From: Planctomycetota bacterium
GTDB lineage: Bacteria; Planctomycetota; SZUA-567; H5-PLA8
Length of the DNA: 64,000 bases
Reading direction: 5' to 3'
Assembly: GCA_016200135.1 (NCBI GenBank)
Contig: JACQFI010000115.1
Coordinates: 1 to 64,000, forward strand
Notes under the pieces: generated by a model
What the model saw: the letters and a program-made list of their open reading frames with translations, nothing else
Databases searched by the model: none
What the model was told of the DNA's origin: nothing
Made by a program: the position numbers and the translations under genes
Shown here: piece after piece, positions 3,157 through 49,968 of the stretch
Numbering within the stretch: position 1 is the stretch's first letter
Layout: each line of letters opens with the position of its first letter

Positions 3157-4395
3157 ATGAGCGGCAAGAAATCCGCGAAGACGGGCGGGCGGCGCAAGCC
3201 GCCGGTGGATGAGCGTGGGCGCATCCTGGACGATATCGGCCGGATCGAGGACCCGATCGGGATCGATCTGAACAGCCCCGTGCCGAAATACTACCAGCTC
3301 ATGAAGTGGCTGGAGTTCGACTACAGCCATTCGCCGTTCGGGCGGAAGCTGCCGTCGGAACGGGAACTGGCGCGGCGGAGCGGCGTGACGGTGGCAACGG
3401 TGCGCCAGGCGCTGCGGGAGCTCGAACGGGAAGGCAAGATCCGGCGCGAGCAGGGCCGCGGGACGTTCTCCAAGAACTGCCTCGTGTTGCCCAAGCCGCC
3501 CGGCACGGACCGGCCGCGGGTGGTGCTGGCGTTCTTCGACCTCGGCGGCACGATCGCGGAAGGCTACGGGTACATCGTCTCGGAGCTGATCGCGGGTTGC
3601 GAGGACACGCTGAGCGCCGGAGGCTGCGACTTGCAGGTGCTGGATGTGCGCCCGGGCAAGCGCAAGGAGGCCGGGCACCTGCTCTTCGGCGGCGGCATCG
3701 CGTGGGACGGCCTGGTGCTCACCGACCCGTGGGGCAAGCTGCGCCAGACGTGGGAACAGGCCGCGGCCCAGCACCTGCCGCATGCGGCGATCGGCGAGAA
3801 CGCGCCGCCGGGGCAGGCGGCTCCGCCGGGCGCACAGTGGGTCTGCCTGGACACGGAGCAGGGCGGCGCGCAGGTAGCGGCCGCGTTCCACGAGCGCGGC
3901 CGGCGGCGCATGGCGTATGTGGGCGGCGAGGGCGCGCGGCTGCGGGGCTTCCGCAAGCAGGCCGCGGAGCTGGGTCTGGAGATCTCCGAGGAGTATGTGA
4001 GGATCGACCGCGCGATCAGTCTGGAGGAGTGCGACCGCGCGGGGCATGCGGGCGCGCTGCGGCTGCTGGGGACGTCTCCGCCTCCGGAGGCGATCTTCGC
4101 GGGGAACGACTTTCGCGCGTTCGGCGTGCTGCGGGCGCTGCAGGAACGCGGCGTGCCGGTGCCGCTGGAGCTCGACGTGGTAGGGTTCGACGACGTGGCG
4201 GGCGCGGCGAGCCTTTTGCCGGCGCTGGCGTCGGTGCGCCTGCCGCTGCGCCAGGCCGCGGAACTGGCGGCATGGGCCACGCTCTTCTGGATCGCGCATC
4301 CGCGCGAGCGCACGCCGCGGCTGGACTGCCTGCAACCGCAGTACTGCTGGCGCGAGTCGCTGCGGGCGAAGCCGGTGGACCAGCCCAAAGTCTGA
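3157..4395 (+). CDS. AraR-like chimeric transcriptional regulator (GntR HTH + LacI-type ligand-binding domain), paralog of 358-1455
   Basis: GntR HTH (LPSERELARRSGVTVATVRQALRELEREGKIRREQGRGTFS) followed by a LacI-like domain (RRMAYVGGEG, LDVVGFDD). The alternative Ala/Arg-rich frames 3306-4496 and 3094-4428 were rejected. Confidence 0.7.
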   Translation: MSGKKSAKTGGRRKPPVDERGRILDDIGRIEDPIGIDLNSPVPKYYQLMKWLEFDYSHSPFGRKLPSERELARRSGVTVATVRQALRELEREGKIRREQGRGTFSKNCLVLPKPPGTDRPRVVLAFFDLGGTIAEGYGYIVSELIAGCEDTLSAGGCDLQVLDVRPGKRKEAGHLLFGGGIAWDGLVLTDPWGKLRQTWEQAAAQHLPHAAIGENAPPGQAAPPGAQWVCLDTEQGGAQVAAAFHERGRRRMAYVGGEGARLRGFRKQAAELGLEISEEYVRIDRAISLEECDRAGHAGALRLLGTSPPPEAIFAGNDFRAFGVLRALQERGVPVPLELDVVGFDDVAGAASLLPALASVRLPLRQAAELAAWATLFWIAHPRERTPRLDCLQPQYCWRESLRAKPVDQPKV

Positions 4396-4440
4396 CGACG
4401 GCCGGCCCGAGTTCCTCTTCGAGCGCATGTCCTTCCTTTG

Positions 4441-9078: not shown

Positions 9079-9093
9079 GTATGTTTCCTCGTT

Positions 9094-11970: not shown

Positions 11971-12096
11971 GTTTCAGGCCCCTTTGCACAGGTGAGGCGC
12001 TCACACCTGCATTGAACGGTGTTACGTCTTCCTTCACATACGCCGCCGGCCGAAGAAGGCGGCCTGGAGAAGTCTTTCCTCGGCCCGATAGTCATT

Positions 12097-12112
12097 TTCT
12101 GTGCTAGAAAAT
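12097..12112 (-). promoter_or_regulatory. Conserved upstream motif TTCTGTGCTAGAAAAT (extended: TCATTTTCTGTGCTAGAAAAT), copy 1, ~127 bp upstream of the 9094-11970 start codon
   Basis: The identical 16-mer recurs at 16905-16920 and 26044-26059, each ~126-129 bp upstream of a long-form propeller paralog. The outer arms TTTTCT/AGAAAA form an inverted repeat. Confidence 0.45.
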
Positions 12113-12179
12113 GCAGCGGACGGCACTGGGCGCCTGCGGGAGGCCGGAACGGCCCGCCATGGTCTTGGAAGCTACGCGA

Positions 12180-13955
12180 TCAAGGCGCGCGGAGATTGTA
12201 GCAGGCGATGACGTCGTTCTGGCGGAGGATGAGCGCGCCGCCGCTTAAGGCAGGAGAGGTCAGCGGGCACAGCTTGGGATCGAACTCGGCCAGGCGGGTG
12301 AATTCCGCGCCGGGCGCAGCGTTGGCGCTGAGCAGTTCGAGGCTGAACGTGTGCCCGCCATGCGGGCGGCTGATGACGTTGATCAGTTTGCCGTCGATGG
12401 TGACGGGACAAGAGGTCCCGCCTTCGCTGTTCTTGTACACTGGGCTGGTCCACTTCTGTTCGCCGGTCTTCAGGTCCAGGCAGTAGAAGGTGGTGGGGCC
12501 GAACTCGCGGATGTTCGAGTACACGTACAGATTATTCTGCGCGACGGTGTAGGTTCCCCAGCCGCCGACGGGTTTCTTCCAGAGCAGTTCCGCCTTGTCC
12601 GGCGACAGCTTGTAGGCGCGCACTTCCGTCGGCGAACCCATGATGGCGGCCAGGATATCGCCGCATACGACGGGAGAACTCCATTCGCTGGGCACGCCCT
12701 CAAACGTCCAGAGGCTCTTGCCGGTTTCCAGATCGAGGCAACACCACGCGTTGTTGCCGTCCGTGGAGATGACGCACGGCCTGCCCTGCGAGACCCACAG
12801 GGCGGGCGAGATGAACTTGCCCTTGGCCCAGACCGCCCACGAGGATTTCCAGGCCGGATTCGTCCAGAGCACCTTGCCGGTATTCGCGCTGTAGGCGGAT
12901 CCGTAGTGATAGACGATGCCATTGGCGGCCAGCGGCGAGGCGTGCGCCGGCTCGGTCTTGGCCTGCCACAGAAGGCTGCCGTCCTTGGCCGAGAGGCAAT
13001 ACAGCCCCGCCATGCCGGCGGCAAAACACATCCCGTCGAGCACGGCCGGCGTGCCGCTCGCGCCGATCTCGAGAAAACCGCCTTGGGGAATGCCGCGCCG
13101 GCCTTTGAGTGCCGTCCAGTCCGCGGGAAAGTCTTTCTTCCAGAGCGTCTTGCCGGTAGCGGCATCCAAGCAAAGAATGGTGTCCATCGGTTTGCATGCG
13201 CGCATCCAGACATTCTTGGAGAACGATCCGAGCACGCCTTGATGGCCGTCCCAGGCGTCCTTCCCGCACAGGAGCGCGGTCTTCTTTGAGTTCCATTCGA
13301 AGATGGACTCGATTTCCGTGTCTCGCAGCGTGCTCATCTTGACCAGTTCATCCCAGGTATACTCGGTCCCGTTCATGCAGAAGCGGCGCTTGATGTACGC
13401 GCCGTACTTTTGGGCATCCTGAGGGGGCAGCGTGCCGATGAAATCCTTCACATACTTGTTCAGCTCCGGGGTCTTCTCGATGAACGCGACGATGTCAGCG
13501 TCTTTGGGGGCTTCGACGTCGTACCAGGCCGGCGCGCCGCGGGTCGCCGGCCGCGCCAATCTCGCGGTCTCGATCTTCTTCGCCAGTTCGTCGGGAAGAT
13601 CGGGCAGCCAGCCGGCGTCGATCAGGGCTTCCGTGGTAATGGGCTTGAATTTCTTGCCACCACCGATGGGTTGCCTGGCATTGAAATAAAGAAACACTTT
13701 CCCATCCGCCACGACGGGACTGCCGCAGCCGGCCTCCTCGTAACCGGGGATCGGCTCGCTCTTCCAAACTAGCGGCGGGCCTTCCTTGGGCCACTCATCG
13801 AGCAGCTTAGGGCTGGCGAGCGCGGCGCCGTCGCGGTTGGGGCCGCGCCACTGGGGCCAGTCGGAGTATTGCGGCGTCTCGGCGCTCAGGAGCGTGGATG
13901 CACTCCACGCACACCATAGAAGAGCCCAAGCTGCACCATTCGACGCGTTGCTCAT
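12180..13955 (-). CDS. Secreted PQQ-like beta-propeller repeat protein, short form (propeller only)
   Basis: Signal peptide followed by YSDWPQWRGPNRDG. 591 aa, lacking the C-terminal extension. Only 16 nt separate it from the upstream paralog. Confidence 0.8.
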   Translation of the reverse strand: MSNASNGAAWALLWCAWSASTLLSAETPQYSDWPQWRGPNRDGAALASPKLLDEWPKEGPPLVWKSEPIPGYEEAGCGSPVVADGKVFLYFNARQPIGGGKKFKPITTEALIDAGWLPDLPDELAKKIETARLARPATRGAPAWYDVEAPKDADIVAFIEKTPELNKYVKDFIGTLPPQDAQKYGAYIKRRFCMNGTEYTWDELVKMSTLRDTEIESIFEWNSKKTALLCGKDAWDGHQGVLGSFSKNVWMRACKPMDTILCLDAATGKTLWKKDFPADWTALKGRRGIPQGGFLEIGASGTPAVLDGMCFAAGMAGLYCLSAKDGSLLWQAKTEPAHASPLAANGIVYHYGSAYSANTGKVLWTNPAWKSSWAVWAKGKFISPALWVSQGRPCVISTDGNNAWCCLDLETGKSLWTFEGVPSEWSSPVVCGDILAAIMGSPTEVRAYKLSPDKAELLWKKPVGGWGTYTVAQNNLYVYSNIREFGPTTFYCLDLKTGEQKWTSPVYKNSEGGTSCPVTIDGKLINVISRPHGGHTFSLELLSANAAPGAEFTRLAEFDPKLCPLTSPALSGGALILRQNDVIACYNLRAP

Positions 13956-13971
13956 GTGCGTGCTTTTTCCA

Positions 13972-16779
13972 CTATTTTGTTACCGTGGTGGGAGAATCGA
14001 AAAAAACGCCGCTCGCTTTAGCGAAGATGGAATGCCAATGGGGTCCATTCTTGCTCGACAGGCGCAGGATCACGCTTCCTTTGACATTCCAGATCAGATA
14101 GCGACTGGTGCTATCGGCGCGATTGACCTCCTGGGTATCCAAAACCGCTTTTGTGTCGGCGTCTTGAACCTCTACCTGCATTCCTTCGAAACTGCAAAAG
14201 CTGATATAAAGCGCCACCTGATGTTCCTTTCCATCCGTGACATCGATATCAATGAACATCTGGTCGAAGGAAACCCAATGCTTGACGGCGCGTCCTTGAG
14301 CGCCGCCCACTTTCTGCAAATAGCGGGGATCCGCGGCATTTACCGCCCAGGGAGTCTCATCGCTCTTTCCCCGAACCGCCACGATTGCGCCCTTAGGCGC
14401 CGCCGTGTCCGGTTCGCCGGCGATCACCGCTCCCTCGGCGCCGTAGACCCCCTTCCAATTTCCGGAAGTGGCCTCATCCACCTTCACGAACTTGGCCGCC
14501 GCGCGTTGGACTTCGGCGACGGTGGCGGTCAGTTTCTCGATTCGCACGTCCCCTGCATCGACTGCGAAGCACGGATACGTTATGCTGATCGCCTCGCCGA
14601 TTTTCCATTTCCTGTCCGTCGTCAGGCTGACGCTCTTGCCCGACGGATCGAGCACGGCGGCGGTGACTTTTGCGCCGTCGATGGAATACGTGCCGGGCTT
14701 GTCCCAATTTCCGACTTGTGGAAGGGGAAGATTGCCCGTCAGCACGAGGGTGTTGTCAAAACACTTCTTGCACTTCAGAAGGCGCGCTTCATTCCATTCG
14801 AACGCCGGCACGGCCAGACCGCTTTTTGCCGCCAACGCGCCGCCCGTGCAGGAGATGTTGAACGGCGCGGCGGCACCCCGGATATCGACCACGATGGTGT
14901 CTCCCGCGATCGTCGCCTGGGCCGGTTTTTCTGCGCCGGCGGCATCGTTGATCTTGAGGCCCGCCGCGTCTTTGACGGACAGCCCCCCGCCCGTCTGCTT
15001 GAAGCGGAAGGTGAGTGCGTCCTTCGCCGCAGTCACGCCTTCGAGATAGACGCCGTGCTCCCGCAAGTCATAGCAGGCGATGCCGTCGAGCAGGCGCGTG
15101 TAGATCTTTCCGTCCGCAAAAGCCGGATAACACATGATGCTGGCCTGCGGATTGAAACTGCCCAGCTCGGCGTACTTCTCGGGGGTGGCTTTGTACATTC
15201 CAAACGGTACTGATTCAGCGCTGACACTATTGTTAAAACCGAAGATCTTCCCGTCGGCCAGGATTTGAGCGTTAAAGATTTCTCTGCCTCTTAATTTCCA
15301 ATTCTCGTTGCCCGTCCTGAAATCCACACAGATGCCCGGAGAATACAGATGGTCCAGGTAAACAACCGAATCAGATAACCCAAGGGATGCTTTCCAGAGC
15401 AACTCGGTTCCGGCCGGCAACATCTTGAACGCCGCAGCACGACCATTCGTGGACGCTTCTATTAGAGTGCCGTCATGAACCGTGGGACTGGAATTTATTT
15501 CGCCTTTCAAGGTCCATTTGACTTCCCCTGTCTTCAGGCTCAGGCACACATAAGCTTCGCGCCCATTGGAGGTGATAACGTATTTCTCGCCGCCCGATGT
15601 CCACAAGAGGGGCGAACTGTATCGTGCGCCGGATTCATCTCTAATATGCTTGCCATCGCCAATCACCCACGCGGAATTTTTCCACAGTAATTTGCCGGTT
15701 TCGGCGTCGTATGCGCACCCGATGTGATAAACGATGCCGTCGGCGATCAGCGGCGAGGCATGCTCCGGACCGCCTTTGACTTGCCACAACAGGGAGCCGT
15801 CTTTAACCGACAGGCAGTACAGTCCCATGGACCCGACCATGTAGCACTTGCCACCCCAGACCGCCGGCGTGGCGCAGGCGCCCAAGGCATCAAACACCCA
15901 CCATTGAACCCCGGGATCTTTCAATACAGCCGGGTCCACCGGGAAAACCTTCCTCCAGAGCTCTTTGCCTGTGGCGGCCTCCAGGCAGATCATGGCATCC
16001 GACCACGTGAAGGCGCGCGTCCAAGCCGCGTAGAAGTTGGATGAAAAAGTAATGTGGTGGGAGAGACCGAACCCGCCCACGTCCTTCAATGCCGCCACCC
16101 ACTCTACGCAGGACTTGTGCCCCACGTCCCGCAGTTTGTTCATCTTCTCCAACTGCTCCCAACTCAGGCCGTCCGGAACGCCAAACTTCCTTTTCGGCGT
16201 ATCAATGCAAAGTCGCCTTTGGATGAAGTCGCCGTATTTCTTGGCGTTCTCCGGACTCAGTGTGGCGATGAAATCCTTGATGTATTTGTCCAGCTCGGGT
16301 TTCTTCGCGAGCAGAGCATCCAAATCTGCCTTCTTAGACTTGTCGGGATCCCACCAGCGCCAGTCCGTGACGGGTCGGTCCTTTGAAGCCCAGGCTTCTT
16401 CTACCTTTTTCGCCAGATCGGCGGGCACATCCGGACACCAGCCCCAGTCGGCCAGAAGCTCCGCGGTTACGAATTTGAACGTGTCTCCGCCAGCGACCGG
16501 CAGTTTGTTGGAATAGACAAAAACTTTTCCGTCCGCCACTACCGGAGCGCCCAGGCCGCCGTCGCGATAGGAGGGAACCAGTCCACTCTTCCAGAGCAGC
16601 GGCGGCCCTTCTTTGGGCCAGGCGTCGAGCAGCTTTGGGCTGTTGACCGCGATGCCGTCGCGATTCGGACCGCGAAACTGCGGCCAGTCGGAACTCGGTT
16701 CCGGCTCCGCTCCGAAGGCGGCGTAGGCCGATACAAGTCCGCAGGCGAGGAGGATTCGCTGGAGCGAGTAGGGGCACAT
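13972..16779 (-). CDS. Secreted PQQ-like beta-propeller repeat protein, long form
   Basis: The ORF extends to 16896, but the start at Met 16779 (MCPYSLQRILLACGLVSAYAAFG-AEPEPSSDWPQFRGPNRDG) gives a canonical ~24-aa signal peptide like the paralogs. The C-terminus carries FVKVDEATSGNWKGVYGAEGAVIAGE. Confidence 0.75.
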   Translation of the reverse strand: MCPYSLQRILLACGLVSAYAAFGAEPEPSSDWPQFRGPNRDGIAVNSPKLLDAWPKEGPPLLWKSGLVPSYRDGGLGAPVVADGKVFVYSNKLPVAGGDTFKFVTAELLADWGWCPDVPADLAKKVEEAWASKDRPVTDWRWWDPDKSKKADLDALLAKKPELDKYIKDFIATLSPENAKKYGDFIQRRLCIDTPKRKFGVPDGLSWEQLEKMNKLRDVGHKSCVEWVAALKDVGGFGLSHHITFSSNFYAAWTRAFTWSDAMICLEAATGKELWRKVFPVDPAVLKDPGVQWWVFDALGACATPAVWGGKCYMVGSMGLYCLSVKDGSLLWQVKGGPEHASPLIADGIVYHIGCAYDAETGKLLWKNSAWVIGDGKHIRDESGARYSSPLLWTSGGEKYVITSNGREAYVCLSLKTGEVKWTLKGEINSSPTVHDGTLIEASTNGRAAAFKMLPAGTELLWKASLGLSDSVVYLDHLYSPGICVDFRTGNENWKLRGREIFNAQILADGKIFGFNNSVSAESVPFGMYKATPEKYAELGSFNPQASIMCYPAFADGKIYTRLLDGIACYDLREHGVYLEGVTAAKDALTFRFKQTGGGLSVKDAAGLKINDAAGAEKPAQATIAGDTIVVDIRGAAAPFNISCTGGALAAKSGLAVPAFEWNEARLLKCKKCFDNTLVLTGNLPLPQVGNWDKPGTYSIDGAKVTAAVLDPSGKSVSLTTDRKWKIGEAISITYPCFAVDAGDVRIEKLTATVAEVQRAAAKFVKVDEATSGNWKGVYGAEGAVIAGEPDTAAPKGAIVAVRGKSDETPWAVNAADPRYLQKVGGAQGRAVKHWVSFDQMFIDIDVTDGKEHQVALYISFCSFEGMQVEVQDADTKAVLDTQEVNRADSTSRYLIWNVKGSVILRLSSKNGPHWHSIFAKASGVFFDSPTTVTK

Positions 16780-16904
16780 GACTTCAGTCCTTTGCATGAG
16801 CGTCAGAATCACATGTGCTTTAATCACCGCTTCGTCCATTGTCGTATACTCCGGCCAAGGTATGCACAGACCTCTAGAAAGAGAGCCGTGGGTCAATAAG
16901 TATA

Positions 16905-16920
16905 TTCTGTGCTAGAAAAT
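16905..16920 (-). promoter_or_regulatory. Conserved upstream motif TTCTGTGCTAGAAAAT, copy 2 (~126 bp upstream of the 16779 start)
   Basis: Exact 16-mer match to copies at 12097 and 26044. An additional half-site-like CTAGAAA lies at 16873-16879. Confidence 0.45.
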
Positions 16921-16976
16921 TACGGTACTGCCCTCTCGGTTCTCCAGACGGCGAAGCGAGGCGCCGGCGCTCCAAA

Positions 16977-19634
16977 CTACTTGGACGGCTCGGGCGGATC
17001 GATGAAGACGCCGCTGACCGCGGCTTCGCTCAGGTAGGTGTTGAGGAAATGCAGCGTCACATGGCCTTTGAGGTTCCAGACGAGGTATTTGCCGTTGCGG
17101 AAGGCTTTTAAGGTCTGCGAATCGAGCACCGCTTTAGTGCCGAAATCCCGCACGTCCACGCGCATCTGGCGTTCGTAGTTCCCGGTGGCATCCAGGCAAT
17201 AGAAGGCGACGCGGTGCTCCTTGCCGTCCGGCAGCGCGACGTCGATCTCGAACATGTCGGCCGCCCAGTAGGCGCCGCTGCGGTCTTTGGAATCGCCCGG
17301 CTTGAGCTGGTTCCGGGGTTCGGCGGGGGGAATCACGGCGTTGGCCCAGGTCCTCCAGACGTCGTCGCGCTTGTTAGACGCGGTCACCACGGCCAGGCTC
17401 GCGGGCGGCGCTTCCTTTTCGAGCGGAATCACGACGCCTTCCGCGCCGTACACGCCCTTCCAGTTGCCCGAGGTCGTCTCGTCGACCTTCACGAACTTCA
17501 CCGACGCGAGCGCGGGATCGGCGGCGGCGGTGAAGGCGAGCTTCTCGCGCGGCGCGTCCCCCGGGCCGTCGAGCACGCCGGCATAGGAGAGCGTTCCCGC
17601 ATCGCCCGGCTTCCAAGCTTTGTCCGTAGTGACGATCACGAACTTGTCGCCGGGGGCGATCTCGACGCGCGCGACGATTGCGCCTTCCACCGCAAAGTTC
17701 GCGGGCGAGTTCCATGCGGTCCTGCGGCCGATGGGCGCGTCGGACTCCAGTACGAGCTGGTTGCCGAAGGAGGTCTTGAACTTCAAATGCACGGGACCTT
17801 TTCCGGCCACGGCGGGCGCCGCGGCGTGGTCCTGTAAGTCGTAGCAGGCAACGCTGTCCAGGAGGCGCACGTACAACTTTCCGCCGGCAAACGCGGGGGA
17901 ACTGAGCGGGCACGCACCGGGATTGAACTGTCCAAGCTGCGCGTAGGGTTCATTGGGCGTCGCGCGAAGCATCTCGACCGCGAAGCCCTTGCCGTCGTGG
18001 TACCAAAGGGTGTGCGCACCGCCAAGCGTGCCGTAGATCTTGCCGTCGGCGAGGAAGGGCCAGCAGATGTTCGATTCGGAGACGAAGGTGGAGACGCGCT
18101 TGGCCCAGGCGATCTCGCCCGACTTCGCGTCCACGCAGCGCCAGATGCCGGCGCTCTCGAGCGCATCGAAGAGGTAGACGTGGTCCCGGTCGACGATGCC
18201 GCCGCCCTGGCCGGTACCGTACGTCTGCTTCCAGAGGAGTTCCGTGCCGGACACGGAGATCTTGTAGCATTGCGCGCCTTTGCCGAACTCCCCGGTATTG
18301 ATCAGCAACACGTCGCCATGAAGCACCGGCGCCGCGAAGTGCGTGGAGACTTTCTCGATGGTCCAGGCCGGCTTTCCGGTTTCGAGATCGAGACAGCACC
18401 AGTTGTTAGGGCTGGTGGTGATGACGTATTTGCGTCCGCCCGAGGTCCACAAGAGCGGCGAACTGTAGGTCTGCAGCATCGTCCAGTTGCCGGGCTTCCA
18501 GAGCGGGTTCTGCCAGAGCGGCTTGCCGGTCTCGGCGTTGTACGCCGCGCCGGCGTGGTAGACGATGCCTTCGGCGACGAGCGGCGAGGCGTGCGAGGGC
18601 TCGCGCGGCGTCTGCCACAGCACCGCGCCGTCCTTGGCCGAGAGGGCATAAAGTCCCGCGGCGCCCGCGGCGTAGACCTTGCCGCTCAAGACCGCCGGCG
18701 TGCTACACGAACCGAAGATGCCGAAGCTGCGGTCGTTGCCGATCTTCTTCACCACCGCCGGATCTTCGGGAAAATCTTTCTTCCAGAGGACCTTGCCCGT
18801 CGCGGCGTCGAGACAGACCACGGTGTCCAAAAGTTTGTAGGAGCGTTCCCAGGCCATGCCGTTGAACGCCGAGGTGCTCGCGGCTTTCTGGTGGAAGCTG
18901 TAATGGAAGCCGTTCTTCCCCAGGGCCTTTACGTATTCGCCGTAGGTGGCGAACTCCAGATCGCGCAGCTTGCTCAGCTTGACGAGGTTCTCCCAGGTCT
19001 CGCCGACCATGGCCACCCAGTCGATCGTCACCTTCTCCTTATTGATGCAGAGACGCCGGCGGACGAACGCGCCGTACTTCTTGGCCTCGTCGGGGCTCAA
19101 CGCAGTGGTGAACTCCTTGATGTACTTGTCCAGTTCGGGATTCTTCGCGAGGAACGCGTCCAGGTCCGCGTCCGCAGGCCGTTCGGCGGACCACCAGCGC
19201 CAGCCGGCGCAACTCGGGCGCTTGGGCGAGGCCCAGGCGTCCTCGATCTTCTTCGCTAAGGGATCCGGCAAATCGGGCAGCCAGCCCGCATCGGCGAGCA
19301 CTTCCAACGTGATGGGCTTGTACTTCGTCCCGCCGGCCACCGGCTGCTTCCAATTCACGTAGAGGAAGACCTTACCGTCGGCCACGACCGGGCTGCCCAT
19401 GCCGCCTTCGTCGCAGCCGGGAATCCACTCGCTCTTCCAGAGCTGCGGGGGGCCTTCCTTGGGCCACGCGTCGAGGAGTTTGGGACTCGCCTGCGCGATG
19501 CCATCCCGATTGGGGCCGCGCCACTGCGGCCAATCGGAGGAATCCGTATTCTTTTCCGCCGCCAAGCCGCCGCCGCACAGCACCAAGATCGTTAAAACCA
19601 GCCAATTCATGTTGTTCTTCAATGTTTTATCCAT
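16977..19634 (-). CDS. Secreted PQQ-like beta-propeller repeat protein, long form
   Basis: The start is refined to Met at 19634 (MDKTLKNNMNWLVLTILVLCGGGLAAEKNTDSSDWPQWRGPNRDG), which removes the overlap with the upstream paralog ending at 19640. Contains FVKVDETTSGNWKGVYGAEGVVI. Confidence 0.75.
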   Translation of the reverse strand: MDKTLKNNMNWLVLTILVLCGGGLAAEKNTDSSDWPQWRGPNRDGIAQASPKLLDAWPKEGPPQLWKSEWIPGCDEGGMGSPVVADGKVFLYVNWKQPVAGGTKYKPITLEVLADAGWLPDLPDPLAKKIEDAWASPKRPSCAGWRWWSAERPADADLDAFLAKNPELDKYIKEFTTALSPDEAKKYGAFVRRRLCINKEKVTIDWVAMVGETWENLVKLSKLRDLEFATYGEYVKALGKNGFHYSFHQKAASTSAFNGMAWERSYKLLDTVVCLDAATGKVLWKKDFPEDPAVVKKIGNDRSFGIFGSCSTPAVLSGKVYAAGAAGLYALSAKDGAVLWQTPREPSHASPLVAEGIVYHAGAAYNAETGKPLWQNPLWKPGNWTMLQTYSSPLLWTSGGRKYVITTSPNNWCCLDLETGKPAWTIEKVSTHFAAPVLHGDVLLINTGEFGKGAQCYKISVSGTELLWKQTYGTGQGGGIVDRDHVYLFDALESAGIWRCVDAKSGEIAWAKRVSTFVSESNICWPFLADGKIYGTLGGAHTLWYHDGKGFAVEMLRATPNEPYAQLGQFNPGACPLSSPAFAGGKLYVRLLDSVACYDLQDHAAAPAVAGKGPVHLKFKTSFGNQLVLESDAPIGRRTAWNSPANFAVEGAIVARVEIAPGDKFVIVTTDKAWKPGDAGTLSYAGVLDGPGDAPREKLAFTAAADPALASVKFVKVDETTSGNWKGVYGAEGVVIPLEKEAPPASLAVVTASNKRDDVWRTWANAVIPPAEPRNQLKPGDSKDRSGAYWAADMFEIDVALPDGKEHRVAFYCLDATGNYERQMRVDVRDFGTKAVLDSQTLKAFRNGKYLVWNLKGHVTLHFLNTYLSEAAVSGVFIDPPEPSK

Positions 19635-19639
19635 GCACT

Positions 19640-21454
19640 CTATTTTGCTCGCAGATCGTAACACGTCACACCGTCTTCGGATCGCACGAACATCAGCCCG
19701 CCCGCCAGCGCCACCGGATTTGACCAGGGGCATATTTTCGGTTTGAACTGCCCGAGGGAGATAAAGTTTTCAGGAGTGGCTCTCACCAAGTCCATCTGGC
19801 AACTTCCCCAGACATCTAGGTCGCCCTTCCCTCTCTTTATCACAATCATTTTCCCATCGGCCAGGAGCCAGGGAACTCCACAACTTTTGTCGGTCCAGTT
19901 CATTTTACCCGTCTTTACATCAAAACAGCATAACCCGGTAAGTTTGCTGGGTTTGATTTCGGTACCGGTGACGTATTCGTATAAGTGGTCTTGGTAGAGA
20001 ATCTGTCCGAGGCAATTGAGGCTTGCCCCCTCGGGACACCCATCCAACCTGGCGAGCGGTTCAACCTTGGCCGGCGATATCCTATAGAGGCCGACCATAA
20101 CCAGAACGTTGCCGGCGATTCCCACGCTGACAGGTTCCGCCTCATCGTTCTTCAGCGTCCAGCAGTTCTCTCCCGTTTTCAGGTCGAGACAGCTGAGAGA
20201 CTCTTTTGCATTTCCGGTGGATGCGAAGACATAGCTCCTGCCGTCCTGCGACCATATGAGCGCCGAGGAGTTGTCGCCGCCTTTCTGCCAGGCAGGAATG
20301 CCCTTCCAGAGAGGATTCTTCCAAAGTAATTTTCCGCTTTCGGCGTCGTAAGCAGATCCGCAATGATAAACAACACCATCCGCCACCAGCACCGAAGGAT
20401 GCACGGGGTCACGCTTAACGTACCATACCAGATTCCCGTCTTTCTCCGACACACAGTACAAGCCCCGGGCTCCGGTGAAATAACACTTGCCGTTCCAGAC
20501 GGCCGGCGAGGAACTGACTCCCAAGACTTCGCCGGCGTCAATGAAGGGGCCATTACACCAGTTGCCCGTTTCCTGTTTTATTTTGGCCAATGCATCGGCA
20601 TCCAGGGGAAAATCCTTCTTCCAGAGCATCTTGCCGGAAGCGGCATCCAGGCAAACCAGGGTATCCGATGCCATCGTGTAACCGTGTTTCCACACCGCTT
20701 CGAAGAACATGGACATGCCCAAGTGGTGCGTCAAATGGCCCCTGCGGGTAGTTTTGCTCAGTTCCCCCGCCCACTTCGTAAGCGACGGATATCCCACGTC
20801 CTGCATTTTGCTCAACGTGACCAACTCTTCCCAGGTAAAGCCGGGATCGTTCCCCCATTTGTTAGACACATGATTGATGCACAGTCGCCGCCGGATGTGC
20901 GCGTCGAATTTCTTAGCCTCGTCCGTACTCAACGTAGCAAGGAAATCCTTGATGTATTTGTCCAGCTCCGGCTTTTTCGCCAGAAACTCGTTCAGCGCAT
21001 TATCGTCCTTCATTTCCCACCACGGCCACCCGACGCTGTTCGGGCGGTTCGGAGATGACCAAGCGGCTTCGATTTTTTTCGCCAGTTCGTCCGGCAAATC
21101 CGGCAACCAGCCCGCGTTCGCCAACACGTCCGTGGTGATGAGTTTGTACAAGTTCCCACCGCCCACGGGTTGTTTCCATTGGACGTAAACGAACACTTTC
21201 CCATCAGCCACGACCGGCCCGCCGCATCCTCCGGAATAAAATCCGGGGATCCACTCGCTATTCCAAAGCACTGGCGGGCCTTCTTTGGGCCAACTGTCGA
21301 GAAGTTTAGGACTGTTGACCGCGATGCCGTCTCGGTTCGGTCCGCGCCATTGGGGCCAGTCGGAATTATTGGCCGGCGGCTCCGCCGCTGAAAGCAAACC
21401 TGCGCCAAGCAACGCCCCTGTCGCAAGGAGCACCGAAATCGCCATGTCTTTCAC
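19640..21454 (-). CDS. Secreted PQQ-like beta-propeller repeat protein, short form
   Basis: Signal peptide followed by NSDWPQWRGPNRDG. 604 aa. Confidence 0.8.
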   Translation of the reverse strand: MKDMAISVLLATGALLGAGLLSAAEPPANNSDWPQWRGPNRDGIAVNSPKLLDSWPKEGPPVLWNSEWIPGFYSGGCGGPVVADGKVFVYVQWKQPVGGGNLYKLITTDVLANAGWLPDLPDELAKKIEAAWSSPNRPNSVGWPWWEMKDDNALNEFLAKKPELDKYIKDFLATLSTDEAKKFDAHIRRRLCINHVSNKWGNDPGFTWEELVTLSKMQDVGYPSLTKWAGELSKTTRRGHLTHHLGMSMFFEAVWKHGYTMASDTLVCLDAASGKMLWKKDFPLDADALAKIKQETGNWCNGPFIDAGEVLGVSSSPAVWNGKCYFTGARGLYCVSEKDGNLVWYVKRDPVHPSVLVADGVVYHCGSAYDAESGKLLWKNPLWKGIPAWQKGGDNSSALIWSQDGRSYVFASTGNAKESLSCLDLKTGENCWTLKNDEAEPVSVGIAGNVLVMVGLYRISPAKVEPLARLDGCPEGASLNCLGQILYQDHLYEYVTGTEIKPSKLTGLCCFDVKTGKMNWTDKSCGVPWLLADGKMIVIKRGKGDLDVWGSCQMDLVRATPENFISLGQFKPKICPWSNPVALAGGLMFVRSEDGVTCYDLRAK

Positions 21455-21496
21455 TTTCTTCTCCTACTACCGCTGGTCCTGTTGCACCCTCCGCCA

Positions 21497-23275
21497 TCAC
21501 CTCGCCGTCAGATCGTAGCAGGCGACACCATCGACAAGACGCAAATACAATTTGTCGGCGGCAATGGCTGGGGAGCTGTACACATTGACTTTCGGGTTGA
21601 AAAGGCCTAGCTGGATATATTTCTCGGGAGTGGCTTTGACCATCTCGACCTGAAAACTGCCGTCATAATGGCCTTTCCCGAAAATATTGACGATCTTGCC
21701 GTCGGCCAGGGCCGTCACATTGCAAAGCGTTTCGCCGGGAAGCGCCTGGGTCCACCGGAGGGCGCCGGTTTTCATATCCAGACAATACCAGACCGCGCCG
21801 CTATCCGAGCAGCCCATCACAAAAAGAGAATCTTGAGCGACGAGATAACTTCCCCTCTCGTTCATTTTCACCGTCTGCTTCCACAGGAGCGTGGCGGCGG
21901 CTGGCGTCACCTTGTAGGCTTCCACTTGGGTCGCGCCGCGCAGAATCAGAGTGTCGCCGCTGAGGACCGGCGTGAAGATACTGGGCGCGCCCGGCACGCT
22001 CCAGACAACCTTTCCAGTATCCAATTCAAGACAGCACCAGGAGCGATTGCCGTCGGTGGTGATGATATAATCTTTGCCTGCCGCAGACCATAGAATCGGA
22101 GAACTGACATTTGCGGCAAATTCCCATTGCCTCAAGTTGGACTTCCATTGAGGGTGTTTCCAGAGCAACTTGCCGTCGGTGGCGTTGTAGGCCGCGCCGC
22201 AGTGATACACCACTCCCTTGGCGACCAGCGGCGAGGCATGCGCCGGTTCATCCTTCACCTGCCACAAGAGAACACCGTCCTTGGCCGACAGGCAATACAA
22301 CCCCATGATCCCGGCAAAGTAGCACTTACCCTCCGAGAGGGTCGGCGTGCCGCTGGCGCCAATGTATCCAAAACCGCCATTGCCCACGTTCAAGTAGCGC
22401 ATCACCCGCTCCCGATCTTCCGGGAAATCTTTTTTCCAGAGTTCTTTTCCCGAGGCGGCATCCAGGCAGACGAGCGTGTCGGACTGCGTACTCGCTCGCA
22501 ACCAGGCGTTGGGTATAAGCCAGCCGGCTTTGTCGTCGAAAACCGCTCTGTCAAAAAACAACTCGCTTCCCGACCTTTTCTGGTAATTCCAGGCAAACTC
22601 CGTCTCCTTGTCGCGCCACGCGCTCATCTTGGTCAATTCGTCCCATGTGAAACCGCCCGTCGGATTCCAACCCTTTTTCGGTCCGGATATGCAGAGCCGC
22701 CGTTTGATATACGTTCCGTATTTTTGGGCGTCTGCCGGAGACAGGGTAGCGACGAAATCCTTGATGTACTTGTCCACTTCCGGCGTTTGCGCGATGAACG
22801 CTTCAAGCTCTGCATCCTTCGGGCCGGTGACGGCATACCAAGGCGGCGCTTTGGCGCAGCTCGGCCGGTTGGGGGAAGCCCAGGATTCTTCGATCTTCTT
22901 CGCCAACGCGTCGGGAAGGTCCGGCAACCAGCCGGCATCCAGCAGCAATTCCGTCGTGACCAGGCGGTATTTGCGTCCTCCACCGACCGGACGCATCCAG
23001 TTGACGTACAGAAAAACTTTTCCATCCGCCACCACCGGACTGCCGGCGCCGCCCTCGCCGCAGCCGGGGATCCATTCGCTCTTCCAGACTTGCGGGGGGC
23101 CTTCCTTGGGCCAGGCGTCGAGCAGTTTGGGGCTATTGAGCGCGATGCCGTCGCGGTTGGGGCCGCGCCACTGCGGCCAGTCGGAACGCGCCGGGGCTTC
23201 CGCGCCTAAAAGCGTGGCGACGCCGCACATAAAGAGGTGCGCAGTGGCGGTCCGAAGATTCAGAGCAAGGGTCAT
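21497..23275 (-). CDS. Secreted PQQ-like beta-propeller repeat protein, short form
   Basis: Signal-like N-terminus followed by RSDWPQWRGPNRDG. 592 aa. Confidence 0.8.
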   Translation of the reverse strand: MTLALNLRTATAHLFMCGVATLLGAEAPARSDWPQWRGPNRDGIALNSPKLLDAWPKEGPPQVWKSEWIPGCGEGGAGSPVVADGKVFLYVNWMRPVGGGRKYRLVTTELLLDAGWLPDLPDALAKKIEESWASPNRPSCAKAPPWYAVTGPKDAELEAFIAQTPEVDKYIKDFVATLSPADAQKYGTYIKRRLCISGPKKGWNPTGGFTWDELTKMSAWRDKETEFAWNYQKRSGSELFFDRAVFDDKAGWLIPNAWLRASTQSDTLVCLDAASGKELWKKDFPEDRERVMRYLNVGNGGFGYIGASGTPTLSEGKCYFAGIMGLYCLSAKDGVLLWQVKDEPAHASPLVAKGVVYHCGAAYNATDGKLLWKHPQWKSNLRQWEFAANVSSPILWSAAGKDYIITTDGNRSWCCLELDTGKVVWSVPGAPSIFTPVLSGDTLILRGATQVEAYKVTPAAATLLWKQTVKMNERGSYLVAQDSLFVMGCSDSGAVWYCLDMKTGALRWTQALPGETLCNVTALADGKIVNIFGKGHYDGSFQVEMVKATPEKYIQLGLFNPKVNVYSSPAIAADKLYLRLVDGVACYDLTAR

Positions 23276-23350
23276 CGTGGGTTGTTCCTATCGGCGCTCC
23301 CGGCGCATGGACTGGCCAGGCGGCGATTGCGTGGTTTTTCTTTCGCGCGG

Positions 23351-25915
23351 CTATTTGGCCGGCGCCGCGGGGGGATCGATGAAGACGCCGCCCACCCAGA
23401 CGGCGTGGCCTTCATCCTGGATGGTGGTGATCACGCGCGCGATCACCTGGCCTTTGAGGTTCCAGACGAGGTACTGCTCCTTCTTGGCATCGGCGAGGGT
23501 CTGGGTGTCCAGGATCGCCTTCGTATCGGCGTCCTGCATCTCCACGGTGATGGCGCCGCCCGCGGGGAGGTAGAGCGCCACCTGATGCTCCTTGCCGTCG
23601 GTGAACTCGAGGTCGACGTCCATCTGTTCGCCGGCGCGCCACCACGTGATCGAACGGCCCGTGGCGTTGCCGGAGAGCTGCAGGTTGCGGGTGTTGGCCT
23701 GCGTGTTCGCCCACGGGACGCTGTCGACCTTGTTGTTCACCGTTACGTTCGCGCACTTGGGGACCGCGCCGGCCTTCTCGGCGCAGATCACGGCGCCTTC
23801 CGTGCCGTAAACGCCCTTCCAGTTTCCGGAAGTGGTCTCGTCGCCCTTCACAAACTTGGCAGCCGCGCGCTGAGGTTCGGCGACGGTGGCGGTCATCTTC
23901 TCGCGGCGGGGCTCGCCCTGGCTCACCGGGAAAGCGGCGTACATCAGCGTCACGGCGTCGCCGGTCTTCCAGGTCTTGTCCGTGATCAGGTTCACGCCCT
24001 TGCCTTCCGGATCGAGATCGACGCGCGTGACCTTCGCGCCGGCGAGTTCGAAGTTCTCGGGCTTGTTCCAGCGCCCGTCCTGCTGGAGCGGCAGGTCGCT
24101 CGTGAGCATGATCGTGTTCTCGAAACCTTTCCGGAATTTCAGCAAGCGCGCTTCGTTCCAGGCGAAGGCCGTCACAGGCTGGCCATTCTTGGCCGCCAGC
24201 GCGCCGCCGCCCGCGTACGAGAGGCTAAACGGGACCGCGGCATTCCGGATGTCGACGACGATCTCGTCGCCGTTGATCTGCGCCGCGGCCGGTCGCGTTC
24301 CGGCGGCGTCGGCGATCTGCAGGCCGTTGGACGGGTCCTTGACCGCCAGGCCGCCGCCGGTCTGCTTGAAGCGGAAAGTGAGCGCGTCCTTGGCGGCCGC
24401 CACGGCGTCGAGGTACGCGGCGTGTTCCTGGAGGTCGTAGCAGGCGATGCCGTCGAGCAGGCGCAGGTACAGCTTCCCGCCGGCGATGGCCGGCGAGGTC
24501 ATCATGCACATCTTCGGATTGAAGACGCCGAGTTCGACGTATTTCTCGGGCGTGGCTTTGATCATCGCGAGGGAGTAGGTGAGGTCGCCGAAGTTCTTGG
24601 TCAACTGGTGGCTCTCGCCCAGCGTCGTGAAGAGTTTCCCATCGGCAAGGACGGTCGCGGAGAACTCGCCGACGCCGCCCCGCATCGACTGCTTCCAGTT
24701 GAACTCCCCCGACTTCAGGTCCAGGCACTTGTAGGCGCCGCCGGGCACGTACAGGTGGTCCTGCCAGACGATGTCACCCAGGCCGTCGCTGAAGGGCTTC
24801 TTCCAGAGGACTTCCGCGCCCGCCGGCGTGATCCTGCACGCCTTGGCGCCGCTCCCGGCGTAACTGGTCGCGACCATCAGGAGGTCCCCGCACAAGGTCG
24901 GGATCGTGTTCATGTCGCCCTTCAGGGACCACTGGACCTTGCCGGTTTCCAGGTCGAGGCAGACGTACGCGGAGTTGTGATCGTCGGCGCAGTTGGAGGT
25001 GACGATGTAGTTCCGGCCGCCGGCGGCGAAGAGGAGCGGCGAACTGTAGCGCGCGTTCGTTTCGTAGCGCTTGTGCTTGGCGTCCCAGAGTGAATTTTTC
25101 CAGAGGACGGCGCCGGACTCGGCGTTATACGCAACGCCCGCGTGGTACACGATGCCGTTGGCGACCAGCGGCGAACAGTGCTCGGGGTCCGCCTTCGCCT
25201 GCCACAGCAGTGCGCCGTCCTTGGCCGAGAGGCAGTACAGCCCCATGGCTCCGGCGGCGTAGCACTTGCCGCTCCAGACCGCCGGCGTGGCGCTGACGAA
25301 ACCGTCTTCAAAGGTCCACCACTGCACCCCGCCCAGCTTTTTCAGTAGGGCGGTATCGACGGGAAAATCCTTCCGCCACAGGGTCTTGCCCGAGGCGGCA
25401 TCCAGGCAGACAACCGTATCGTTCAAGATTGTGGCGTGCCTCCACGCGTAGTATTGAGGATAGCTGGCGAAGGCGCCCAGTTTCACATCCTTGATCTTCC
25501 CCAGCGCTTTTTCCCATTCGCGTTTGCTGGCGATGCCCACATCTTTCAGACTTTCCAGCTTCACCGCGACGTCTGCGGTAATGATGTTGTCCTTGATCGC
25601 GGCGTTGAGGATCTCCGTCGTGACCAGCTTGTACGTCTGCCCGCCGCCCACGGGCAGTTTCGCGTTGGCGTAGACGAACACCTTTCCATCCGCCACGACA
25701 GGACTGGCGACGCCGCCCTCTTCACAGGCGGGGATCCATTCGCTCTTCCAGAGCTGCTGCGGCCCTTCTTTGGGCCAGGCGTCGAGGAGTTTGGGGCTGT
25801 TGAGCGCGATGCCGTCGCGGTTGGGGCCGCGCCACTGGGGCCAGTCGCTGTCCGCGGCGGTGGCGCATGACGCGAAGACCGCCATGCAGAACACTGCTTG
25901 AATGCGCGTGTGCAT
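23351..25915 (-). CDS. Secreted PQQ-like beta-propeller repeat protein, long form (first gene of the array in the direction of transcription)
   Basis: The start is refined to MHTRIQAVFCMAVFASCATAADSDWPQWRGPNRDG (the ORF extends to 25987). Contains FVKGDETTSGNWKGVYGTEGAVICAE. Confidence 0.75.
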   Translation of the reverse strand: MHTRIQAVFCMAVFASCATAADSDWPQWRGPNRDGIALNSPKLLDAWPKEGPQQLWKSEWIPACEEGGVASPVVADGKVFVYANAKLPVGGGQTYKLVTTEILNAAIKDNIITADVAVKLESLKDVGIASKREWEKALGKIKDVKLGAFASYPQYYAWRHATILNDTVVCLDAASGKTLWRKDFPVDTALLKKLGGVQWWTFEDGFVSATPAVWSGKCYAAGAMGLYCLSAKDGALLWQAKADPEHCSPLVANGIVYHAGVAYNAESGAVLWKNSLWDAKHKRYETNARYSSPLLFAAGGRNYIVTSNCADDHNSAYVCLDLETGKVQWSLKGDMNTIPTLCGDLLMVATSYAGSGAKACRITPAGAEVLWKKPFSDGLGDIVWQDHLYVPGGAYKCLDLKSGEFNWKQSMRGGVGEFSATVLADGKLFTTLGESHQLTKNFGDLTYSLAMIKATPEKYVELGVFNPKMCMMTSPAIAGGKLYLRLLDGIACYDLQEHAAYLDAVAAAKDALTFRFKQTGGGLAVKDPSNGLQIADAAGTRPAAAQINGDEIVVDIRNAAVPFSLSYAGGGALAAKNGQPVTAFAWNEARLLKFRKGFENTIMLTSDLPLQQDGRWNKPENFELAGAKVTRVDLDPEGKGVNLITDKTWKTGDAVTLMYAAFPVSQGEPRREKMTATVAEPQRAAAKFVKGDETTSGNWKGVYGTEGAVICAEKAGAVPKCANVTVNNKVDSVPWANTQANTRNLQLSGNATGRSITWWRAGEQMDVDLEFTDGKEHQVALYLPAGGAITVEMQDADTKAILDTQTLADAKKEQYLVWNLKGQVIARVITTIQDEGHAVWVGGVFIDPPAAPAK

Positions 25916-26043
25916 GATGGGTTTTCCTCGTCCGCGTTCATGGTTAGGTGGAAAGAGTTTGCCAAGCCCCTGCATCGTCTTCGACATACGCCACTGTTGG
26001 ACGCCCTGCGGCGAATTCTTGTTGCCTGCTTCTTAAAGTCATT

Positions 26044-26059
26044 TTCTGTGCTAGAAAAT
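26044..26059 (-). promoter_or_regulatory. Conserved upstream motif TTCTGTGCTAGAAAAT, copy 3 (~129 bp upstream of the 25915 start)
   Basis: The extended match TCATTTTCTGTGCTAGAAAAT is identical to copy 1. Confidence 0.45.
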
Positions 26060-49818: not shown

Positions 49819-49968
49819 TTCAATACCTTTATGAATTTCATTGACTCGCTCACATACTACATGTAGTATGTAGTATACAAGTGAAGAAGACAAAGGCAAG
49901 CGACATTTGTAGATTTCAGGGGATGGCGCGAGCGAGGCCGGTTTTCCTTTAATAAAGGAGCGTGCGGC

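What the first reader, a model, noticed from the sequence alone, without database searches (positions are those of the whole stretch)
12097..26059. Identical 16-21 bp motif (TCATTTTCTGTGCTAGAAAAT) at a fixed ~127 bp upstream of three propeller paralogs, partitioning the array into three units
Exact copies of TTCTGTGCTAGAAAAT occur at 12097-12112, 16905-16920 and 26044-26059. Each lies 126-129 bp upstream of the refined start codon of a long-form paralog (genes starting at 11970, 16779 and 25915), and nowhere else in the window. The arms TTTTCT/AGAAAA form an inverted repeat around a GTGCTA core, consistent with a dimeric regulator site or a conserved promoter/5'-UTR element duplicated together with the gene unit. 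The motif occurs only where intergenic space exists, so the eight genes likely form three operons of 4, 2 and 2 genes, each headed by a long form. Candidate binders are the two adjacent AraR-like regulators.
Basis: seen in the sequence. Interest (0 to 1): 0.66.

Follow-up and report, generated by a model that had tools for sequence, protein, structure and literature searches.

The report
Two-box regulatory module before propeller genes
A short AT-rich near-palindrome, paired with a second conserved box exactly 69 bases downstream, precedes three gene groups in a cluster of eight secreted beta-propeller genes of an uncultured planctomycete; it is most likely an ordinary protein-binding control site for transcription, and its binding protein is unknown.

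Summary
TTCTGTGCTAGAAAAT occurs exactly three times (12097, 16905, 26044). No further copy appears at up to 3 mismatches, against 0.14 expected. The genes are on the minus strand, where the motif reads ATTTTCTAGCACAGAA(A/T)AT ("box A"). It lies 126-129 nt before the starts of three long PQQ_2 propeller genes.

New here: a second conserved box, GG(C/A)GTAT(G/A)(C/T) ("box B"), lies 68-69 nt downstream of box A and about 70 nt before each ATG. The DNA between and around the boxes is at random-level identity, although the paralogs are only 38-58% identical. Both boxes, with the same spacing, recur twice on a syntenic metagenomic contig (66% protein identity). A diverged copy exists on a third contig. 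Box B alone is present before 8 of 8 heads of the closest homologs.

There is no Rfam match, no conserved RNA fold and no sigma-70 consensus promoter. The hairpin is stable in only 3 of 5 copies.

Best reading: a lineage-restricted two-site transcriptional control module. Box A is a site for an unidentified, probably dimeric regulator. Box B has a GntR-type GTATAC core and is the better candidate for the AraR-like regulators. The three-operon split is plausible but unproven. This is a new member of a known kind, of low to moderate interest.

The parts
12094..12112 (-). Box A copy 1: ATTTTCTAGCACAGAAAAT. The identity with copy 3 extends to 12090 (23 nt).
12036..12044 (-). Box B copy 1: GGCGTATGT. 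Its GTAT lies 69 nt downstream of the TTTCTAG of box A and 71 nt before the ATG at 11970.
16902..16920 (-). Box A copy 2: ATTTTCTAGCACAGAATAT (imperfect right arm).
16844..16852 (-). Box B copy 2: GGAGTATAC. It lies 69 nt downstream of box A and 70 nt before the ATG at 16779.
26041..26059 (-). Box A copy 3: ATTTTCTAGCACAGAAAAT.
25984..25992 (-). Box B copy 3: GGCGTATGT. It lies 68 nt downstream of box A and 74 nt before the ATG at 25915.
16977..25915 (-). Unit 1, four PQQ_2 propeller genes: g8 23351-25915 (854 aa), g7 21497-23275 (592 aa), g6 19640-21454 (604 aa), g5 16977-19610 (877 aa; the longest ORF runs to 19733). Intergenic gaps are 75, 42 and about 29 nt.
12180..16779 (-). Unit 2: g4 13972-16779 (935 aa, long form) and g3 12180-13955 (591 aa, short form). 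The gap is 16 nt.
6220..11970 (-). Unit 3: g2 9094-11970 (958 aa) and g1 6220-9078 (952 aa), both long forms. The gap is 15 nt.
358..1455 (+). AraR-like regulator 1 (GntR winged HTH plus Peripla_BP_3). A candidate binder only; no link has been shown.
3157..4395 (+). AraR-like regulator 2 (GntR winged HTH plus Peripla_BP_3). A candidate binder only. The fourth CTAGCAC of the window lies at 3031-3037, about 120 nt upstream of its ATG.

Best explanation
Box A is the upstream half of a two-site transcriptional control module that heads three transcription units (or internal promoters) of the propeller-gene array.

Box A has two AT-rich arms, TTTTCT and AGAAAA, whose centres lie 11 bp (one helical turn) apart around AGCAC. 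It is most likely the binding site of a sequence-specific, probably dimeric helix-turn-helix regulator that is not yet identified.

Box B, G-N-GTAT(G/A)(C/T), lies 64-65 bp away centre to centre, about six helical turns and so on roughly the same face of the helix. It is either a second operator of GntR type or part of the core promoter.

Because no sigma-70-like -35/-10 pair is present, the promoters are probably activator-dependent or use another sigma factor. One consistent but weak reading:
- a -35-like ATGAC(T/A) abuts box A;
- a weak -10 lies about 27-32 nt after AGAA;
- this would centre box A near -42 (a class II activator position) and put box B near +20 (a repressor roadblock position).

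Shown: the conservation of both boxes, their fixed spacing, their restriction to gene heads, and their presence in a second genome. Inferred: protein binding, its sign (activation or repression), the position of the promoter, and the identity of the binders.
For: - Exact triple occurrence, far above chance.
- A footprint pattern: box A and box B are invariant, while the 50 nt between them and the flanks are at random-level identity, in paralogs that are only 38-58% identical at protein level.
- A-to-B spacing is 68-70 nt in 5 of 5 complete copies.
- Both boxes recur twice on the syntenic contig L001 (66% aa identity): once exactly, and once as TTTTTCTAATACAGATAAT. Box B recurs on L082, where the contig end cuts off box A.
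- A relaxed 'right half of A plus B' pattern hits only these five copies and one diverged copy on L160 in 1.72 Mb of fetched loci, with no false positives. On L160 the module sits directly downstream of an AraC-family regulator gene.
- Box B lies 62-74 nt before the start codon in 8 of 8 heads of the closest homologs.
- No canonical promoter occurs in the modules, although the genome does use one elsewhere: TTGACT-N17-TAGTAT at 49841-49869.
- GTATAC/GTATGT matches the GntR signature GT-N-AC and resembles the AraR operator ORR3, which contains CGTATAC (PMC1950556, PMC3592433). A GntR/FCD regulator in this window has a palindromic operator with GTATGT half-sites.
Against: - There are no transcription-start or binding data.
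- The symmetry of box A is not maintained by compensatory change. In L160 mainly the right half survives, so a monomeric or tandem binder, or a sigma factor, is not excluded.
- No full box A copy lies upstream of any regulator gene in the window.
- Only six instances from three or four genomes are available.
- The rest of the source genome could not be scanned, so the regulon is unknown.
- The proposed -35/-10 pair is weak and is not seen in all copies.
Confidence: 0.6

Rival explanations
1. One reading: box A is the operator of one or both adjacent AraR-like (GntR HTH plus LacI-type sensor) regulators, which repress the three units until a sugar ligand is bound.
For: - Two such regulators are encoded 2-6 kb from the array.
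- AraR of B. subtilis binds AT-flanked palindromes (ATTTGTACGTACAAAT) and uses pairs of in-phase operators with DNA looping (PMC1950556).
- Box A shares the outer ATTT...AAAT.
- The only other CTAGCAC in 64 kb lies about 120 nt upstream of regulator 2.
- Homologous propeller genes sit in glycoside hydrolase operons elsewhere, which suits sugar-responsive control.
Against: - Box A has no symmetric GT...AC core, and its centre AGCAC is asymmetric.
- The spacing between ATTT and AAAT is 11 nt, against 8 in AraR boxes.
- The 3031-3037 match covers only 7-10 nt and lacks the AT-rich arms. About one CTAGCAC is expected by chance given the 52 strand-wise CTAG counts.
- The regulators are neither divergent from nor in an operon with the array.
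- On L160 the adjacent regulator is of AraC type instead.
- Box B fits GntR-type recognition better.
Confidence: 0.15
2. Box A is itself a core promoter element, recognised directly by an alternative sigma factor or by a lineage-specific feature of RNA polymerase. Transcription would start just downstream, and box B would lie in the transcribed leader or act as an operator.
For: - No sigma-70 consensus promoter lies elsewhere in the modules.
- The right half contains -10-like hexamers (GAAAAT, GATAAT, GAATAT).
- The left half and core are more conserved than a symmetric site requires.
- The distance to the start codon is constant.
- Some family members are fused to or adjacent to ECF sigma factors (P0084, P0103).
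Against: - The two conserved blocks are 10-11 nt apart, not the 16-18 nt of -35/-10 pairs.
- The sigma-54 GG-N10-GC doublets are absent.
- No conserved -35 lies 17 nt upstream of the -10-like hexamer.
- ECF-type AAC/CGT motifs are absent.
Confidence: 0.17
3. Box A acts as RNA: a small hairpin in a leader or intercistronic transcript, serving as a processing, stability or attenuation signal.
For: - The inverted repeat can fold into an 8-bp hairpin of -4.4 to -6.3 kcal/mol in three copies.
- No terminators were found between the units, so read-through transcripts may contain it.
- The distance to the start codon is fixed.
Against: - The hairpin is lost in 2 of 5 copies (-0.3 and 0 kcal/mol).
- The substitutions break pairs and none is compensatory.
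- No consensus structure is found from box B to the ATG in 8 sequences.
- There is no Rfam hit at gathering or permissive thresholds.
- The stem is all A-U and weak.
Confidence: 0.05
4. The motif has no function: it is a leftover of the tandem duplications that made the array, or the end of a small repeat or mobile element.
For: The genes are tandem paralogs, so their upstream regions share ancestry.
Against: - The flanks have diverged to random identity while 18 of 19 box A positions and box B stay identical.
- Both boxes and their spacing are kept in another genome at 66% protein identity.
- There are only three copies, always at gene heads, and none elsewhere in the window or in 1.7 Mb of related loci.
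- There are no terminal repeats or target duplications.
Confidence: 0.03

Closest known systems
AraR operators of the Bacillus subtilis arabinose regulon (ORA1/ORA2, ORE1/ORE2, ORR3)
   Same: - Short AT-flanked palindromic boxes upstream of carbohydrate-related operons.
- Pairs of sites on the same helical face that are used cooperatively.
- A regulator architecture (GntR HTH plus LacI-type sensor) that is encoded nearby.
- Box B (CGTATAC) resembles the core of ORR3, AAATTTGTCCGTATACATTTT (PMC3592433).
   Different: - Box A lacks the GT...AC core and has a different arm spacing.
- The two boxes here are unlike each other, whereas AraR boxes share one consensus.
- The inter-site distance is about 64 bp.
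- No binding has been shown, and the organism is a planctomycete.
Class II activator-dependent promoters (for example CRP/FNR sites centred at -41.5, or AraC/XylS-family sites abutting -35)
   Same: - A conserved 18-19 bp site with two blocks one helical turn apart.
- No recognisable -35 hexamer.
- A weak candidate -10 at the right distance in some copies.
- An AraC-family gene directly upstream of the diverged module on L160.
   Different: - The sequence is unrelated to the CRP, FNR or MarA consensus.
- The spacer is odd (5 nt).
- The transcription start is unknown, so the position relative to the promoter is only inferred.
GntR/FadR-type operator in the same window (ACATACTACATGTAGTATGT, 49852-49871)
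   Same: It uses GTATGT/ACATAC half-sites like box B, and lies in the intergenic region next to its GntR/FCD regulator gene and overlaps a promoter.
   Different: That site is a perfect 20-bp palindrome overlapping a canonical TTGACT-N17-TAGTAT promoter. Box B is a single 6-9 bp core with GC-rich flanks, and no canonical promoter is present.

Membership tests
AraR/GntR-family operator (claim for box A) | Symmetric GT-N(0-15)-AC signature within a palindrome (PMC1950556). | tested here: not met
   The arms of box A are TTTTCT and AGAAAA. The centre AGCAC is asymmetric and there is no symmetric GT/AC pair.
AraR/GntR-family operator (claim for box A) | Similarity to the 16-bp AraR consensus ATTTGTACGTACAAAT. 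| tested here: not met
   Only the outer ATTT and AAAT are shared. They are 11 nt apart here, against 8 in the consensus.
AraR/GntR-family operator (claim for box B) | A GT...AC core. | tested here: met
   GTATAC is present in win_g4, both L001 copies and L082. The half-site GTATG(T/C) is present in win_g2, win_g8, L160 and L002.
AraR/GntR-family operator (either box) | Specific binding by the neighbouring GntR-type regulators, relieved by a sugar effector. | not testable with these tools
   This needs EMSA, DAP-seq or reporter assays.
Sigma-70 housekeeping promoter | TTGACA-like and TATAAT-like hexamers 16-18 nt apart. | tested here: not met
   There are no consensus sites in the three modules. 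The best position-weight-matrix pairs are weak and inconsistent in position.
Sigma-54 promoter | GG at -24 and GC at -12 (TGGCAC-N5-TTGC). | tested here: not met
   Box A reads TAGCAC-N5-ATGA, ATAC or ATGT. Both invariant doublets are missing (inspection).
Structured RNA element (riboswitch, leader or known Rfam family) | A conserved secondary structure with compensatory changes, or a match to a curated model. | tested here: not met
   There is no Rfam match. The alignment fold finds no pairs from box B to the ATG, and no compensatory pairs in the box A stem. The hairpin is lost in 2 of 5 copies.
Intrinsic terminator | A GC-rich stem-loop followed by a T run. | tested here: not met
   The only hit uses box A's own TTTT after a 5-bp stem, in one copy only. 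The regions between each stop codon and box A fold no better than shuffled sequence (z about +0.7).
Repetitive extragenic palindrome / MITE | Many dispersed copies at varied intergenic positions, often with terminal repeats. | tested here: not met
   There are three copies in 64 kb, all at the same position relative to paralogous genes. None occurs in unrelated contexts in related loci. Metagenome hits were chance matches in AT-rich DNA.
CIRCE (HrcA operator) | TTAGCACTC-N9-GAGTGCTAA inverted repeat. | tested here: not met
   Only TAGCAC is shared. The second arm is absent.

The most novel reading that the evidence does not exclude
The A-69 nt-B module is a self-contained, lineage-specific promoter cassette read by a regulator or sigma factor of a specificity not yet described in Planctomycetota. 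It has been placed in front of different members of a large family of secreted propeller proteins of unknown function, turning what is a single operon in relatives (L160) into separately controlled units. This would make it a handle on how an uncharacterised, glycan-associated protein family is controlled.
Probability: 0.12. Interest if true: 0.5.

Novelty: new member of a known kind. Interest (0 to 1): 0.3.

Why it matters
Almost nothing is known experimentally about promoters and regulator sites in Planctomycetota. A clean two-box footprint with fixed spacing, conserved across genomes, gives defined probes for binding assays and for mapping transcription starts. It also marks a set of eight secreted BamB/PQQ-like propeller paralogs as co-regulated. 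Their relatives sit in glycoside hydrolase operons, which may help to assign them a substrate. In kind it is an ordinary cis-regulatory site, so the value is practical rather than conceptual.

Tried and rejected
- **Genome-collection scan with a protein profile.** Only one related MAG (La1_metabat2.451) was found. Its four loci lack box A at up to 4 mismatches.
- **Metagenome scan with TTTTCTAGCACAGAAWAT.** It gave 71 hits, almost all chance matches in 23-48% GC contigs. The two higher-GC hits (L115, L141) have no propeller gene and no box B.
- **All 12 contig look-ups.** Many relatives have the gene inside hydrolase operons with no upstream module. Two JGI contigs had no DNA available.
- **RNA readings.** Rfam at gathering and permissive thresholds and alignment folds were negative.
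- **Known site types.** Sigma-70, sigma-54, ECF, SigB-like, CIRCE, Pho-box, Fur, CRP/FNR and MarA-box readings were considered by eye or by matrix. None fits all copies.
- **Window AraC regulator (38285-39223) as ortholog of the L160 AraC.** It is only 25% identical, so it was rejected.
- **Literature search for the sequence string.** It returned only unrelated PCR primers. A search for planctomycete promoter or transcription-start studies found nothing usable.
- **Matches inside genes.** TTTCTCGCCAAGAA (11456) and its L001 counterpart (5799) encode the conserved peptide FLAKK. They are coding coincidences.
- **L163.** TTTTCTTTGCACTG lies near a GTATAA word but in a different arrangement, so it was not counted as an instance.
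Full report
**Observation**

The 16-mer TTCTGTGCTAGAAAAT is present exactly at 12097, 16905 and 26044. Allowing up to three mismatches on both strands adds no further match; 0.14 matches are expected and no shuffle out of 100 reached three. Looser patterns add only isolated hits inside genes.

All eight large genes between 6220 and 25915 are on the minus strand, and all contain a PQQ_2 beta-propeller domain. On the gene strand the element reads ATTTTCTAGCACAGAA(A/T)AT ("box A"), at 12094-12112, 16902-16920 and 26041-26059. Copies 1 and 3 are identical over 23 nt. Copy 2 has an imperfect right arm.

The motif lies 126-129 nt before the ATGs at 11970, 16779 and 25915. Two of these starts match the database protein lengths. 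The third is supported by the aligned signal peptides and by a shared GCAAAGG ribosome-binding region.

The source is a metagenome-assembled planctomycete genome, on a 67.8-kb contig of 63% GC.

**What else is there**

Aligning the three upstream regions shows a second conserved block, GG(C/A)GTAT(G/A)(C/T) ("box B").
- Its GTAT lies 69, 69 and 68 nt downstream of the TTTCTAG of box A.
- It lies 71, 70 and 74 nt before the start codons.
- In an ungapped comparison, 18 of 19 box A columns are identical in the three copies. Only 10 of 78 flanking columns are identical, against about 6 expected at random.
- The proteins downstream are only 38-58% identical to each other, and each has closer orthologs in other genomes.

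The duplications are therefore old, and the two boxes have been kept by selection while everything around them drifted.

**Related sequences**

*L001.* This contig comes from a different sample. It is syntenic with the window (pyruvate kinase, PhoU, PIG-L, glyoxalase, then propeller genes) and its proteins are 66% identical. It carries box A twice.
- One copy is exact, before its second propeller gene.
- The other reads TTTTTCTAATACAGATAAT, before its first propeller gene.
- In both, box B (GGCGTATAC) follows at 69-70 nt.

*L082.* This contig (65% identity) begins 77 nt before the gene. It still shows GGAGTATAC at -66, but box A is cut off by the contig end.

*L160.* Orthologs of g5, g4 and g1 form one tight operon behind a 262-aa gene and an AraC-family regulator gene. 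The single upstream region carries a diverged module: GGTATTTATTTAAACAGAAATGAC followed by GGTGTATGCG. The spacing is the same to within about 2 nt; the right-half-to-box-B span is 66 nt, against 66-68 nt in the other five copies.

*Specificity of the pattern.* A relaxed pattern, right half of A plus box B, finds exactly these six modules and nothing else in 1.72 Mb of fetched loci.

*Box B alone.* It lies 62-74 nt before the start codon in 8 of 8 heads of the closest homologs. These include L002, which has a second GCGTATGTC 71 nt upstream in place of box A.

*More distant relatives.* The La1 MAG (37-47% identity) and L084 lack box A. Many other relatives have the gene embedded in GH2, GH123 or GH172 hydrolase operons with no promoter region of its own.

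*Metagenome scan.* A scan for the 18-mer returned 71 hits. Nearly all were chance matches in AT-rich contigs, and none stood before a propeller gene.

The module is therefore real but confined to a narrow clade.

**What it is not**

- *Not a known RNA family.* No Rfam family matches at gathering or permissive thresholds.
- *Not a conserved RNA structure.* The box A hairpin is stable in three copies (-4.4 to -6.3 kcal/mol) but is lost in copy 2 and in the L001 variant. The substitutions break pairs rather than compensate. No shared structure exists between box B and the ATG.
- *Not a sigma-70 consensus promoter.* None lies in the modules. The genome does use one elsewhere: TTGACT-N17-TAGTAT before the HpaB-like gene.
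- *Not a sigma-54 promoter or a CIRCE operator.* The defining bases of both are missing.
- *Not a terminator.* The stretches between each upstream stop codon and box A fold no better than shuffled sequence. The three units may therefore be internal promoters in a cluster with read-through, rather than cleanly separated operons.

**Most likely mechanism**

The anatomy is two conserved blocks one helical turn apart, invariant in sequence rather than in pairing. They sit at a fixed distance from a second conserved box, always at gene heads, in promoters that lack a -35 element. This is the anatomy of a protein-binding transcriptional control site.

I read box A as the site of an unidentified, probably dimeric regulator. 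I read box B as either a second operator or part of the promoter. Centre to centre they are 64-65 bp apart, about six helical turns, so proteins bound to them would face the same side of the helix.

A weak, partly consistent promoter candidate exists: -35-like ATGAC(T/A) abutting box A, with a -10-like hexamer 16-17 nt further on, seen in win_g8, L001_g2 and L160. It would centre box A near -42 and place box B near +20. That is the layout of an activator plus a repressor. This last step is inference only.

**The binder**

The two regulators at 358-1455 and 3157-4395 do have the AraR architecture. AraR boxes follow ATTTGTACGTACAAAT, with the GntR signature GT-N-AC, and they work in in-phase pairs (PMC1950556). 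One of them, ORR3, contains CGTATAC (PMC3592433).

Box A does not carry that signature, whereas box B does. A GntR/FCD regulator elsewhere in this window sits next to a perfect palindrome with GTATGT half-sites.

Two weak leads connect the AraR-like genes to the system:
- The only other CTAGCAC in the window lies about 120 nt upstream of regulator 2.
- Four of the eight GG(C/A)GTAT words outside the modules lie in or next to the two regulator genes.

Both observations were made after the fact, and either could be chance. I therefore rate 'AraR-like regulators bind box A' at about 0.15, and consider box B the better candidate site for them.

**The regulated genes**

An AlphaFold model of g2 (pLDDT 82) shows four parts: a signal peptide, an eight-bladed BamB/PQQ-type propeller, a helical insert, and C-terminal beta domains. 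The only structural matches are to generic propellers, and no solved relative is found by sequence. The glycoside hydrolase neighbours of the homologs suggest a role in glycan use.

**Verdict**

The general interpretation as a regulatory element is supported, and is extended here by a second box and by conservation across genomes. The proposed binder and the strict palindrome are not supported. The finding is a new, lineage-restricted member of a familiar kind of element.

Noticed in passing
window 49841-49871: A perfect 20-bp palindrome, ACATACTACATGTAGTATGT (49852-49871), overlaps a canonical promoter: TTGACT (49841-49846), N17, TAGTAT (49864-49869). It lies between a divergent GntR/FCD regulator gene (about 49153-49810, minus strand) and an HpaB-like 4-hydroxyphenylacetate 3-hydroxylase gene (49969-51420). 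It is a textbook autoregulated operator.
   Followed up: partly
window 40272-40660: An unusually AT-rich divergent intergenic region lies between an alpha-L-fucosidase gene (39240-40271, minus strand) and a GH43-like gene (40661-41647). It contains the 12-bp palindrome TATGTGCACATA (40318-40329) and a box-B-like GGTGTATGCG (40298-40307). An AraC-family regulator gene lies at 38285-39223.
   Followed up: partly
window 4439-4562: Nested inverted repeats (arms 4439-4454/4547-4562 at 94% complementarity, and 4458-4473/4510-4525) form a palindromic element of about 124 nt just downstream of regulator 2. A related C-rich word, CCCCCCTGT(T)AT, also occurs at 15-30. It may be a repeat element or a bidirectional terminator.
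   Followed up: no
window 32, 915, 3912, 3990: Four of the eight GG(C/A)GTAT words outside the three modules lie in or just upstream of the two AraR-like regulator genes. Two GG(C/A)GTATGTG copies lie 78 nt apart inside regulator 2. These may be internal or autoregulatory sites, or chance.
   Followed up: partly
window 3031-3037: CTAGCAC, the core of box A, occurs only four times in the window. The fourth copy lies about 120 nt upstream of the ATG of AraR-like regulator 2, without the AT-rich arms.
   Followed up: partly
L160 2619-12850; L002; L087; L084: In relatives the long-form propeller genes sit beside or inside operons with GH123, GH2, GH172, an FGE-sulfatase enzyme and sialate O-acetylesterase. 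On L160 they follow an AraC regulator gene and a 262-aa protein with no family match. Some homologs are fused to ECF sigma factor domains (P0084, P0103).
   Followed up: partly
window 16977-19733: The longest ORF of g5 (918 aa) overlaps g6. Alignment to the paralogs and the 877-aa database form place its start at 19610, which leaves a gap of about 29 nt after g6.
   Followed up: yes
window 52400-64000: This stretch encodes an XRE-type HTH protein, an AAA ATPase, a JAB-domain protein, a PD-(D/E)XK nuclease and several proteins with no family match. It looks like a mobile, prophage or defence region.
   Followed up: no
L141 (reverse complement, about 3040-3095): An exact box A 18-mer sits at the centre of a longer inverted repeat, GGTATTTACGGTGG-TTTTCTAGCACAGAAAA-TACCACAGTAAATACC. 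It lies about 55 nt upstream of a small divergent gene in an unrelated 57% GC soil contig. It is probably an unrelated operator.
   Followed up: no
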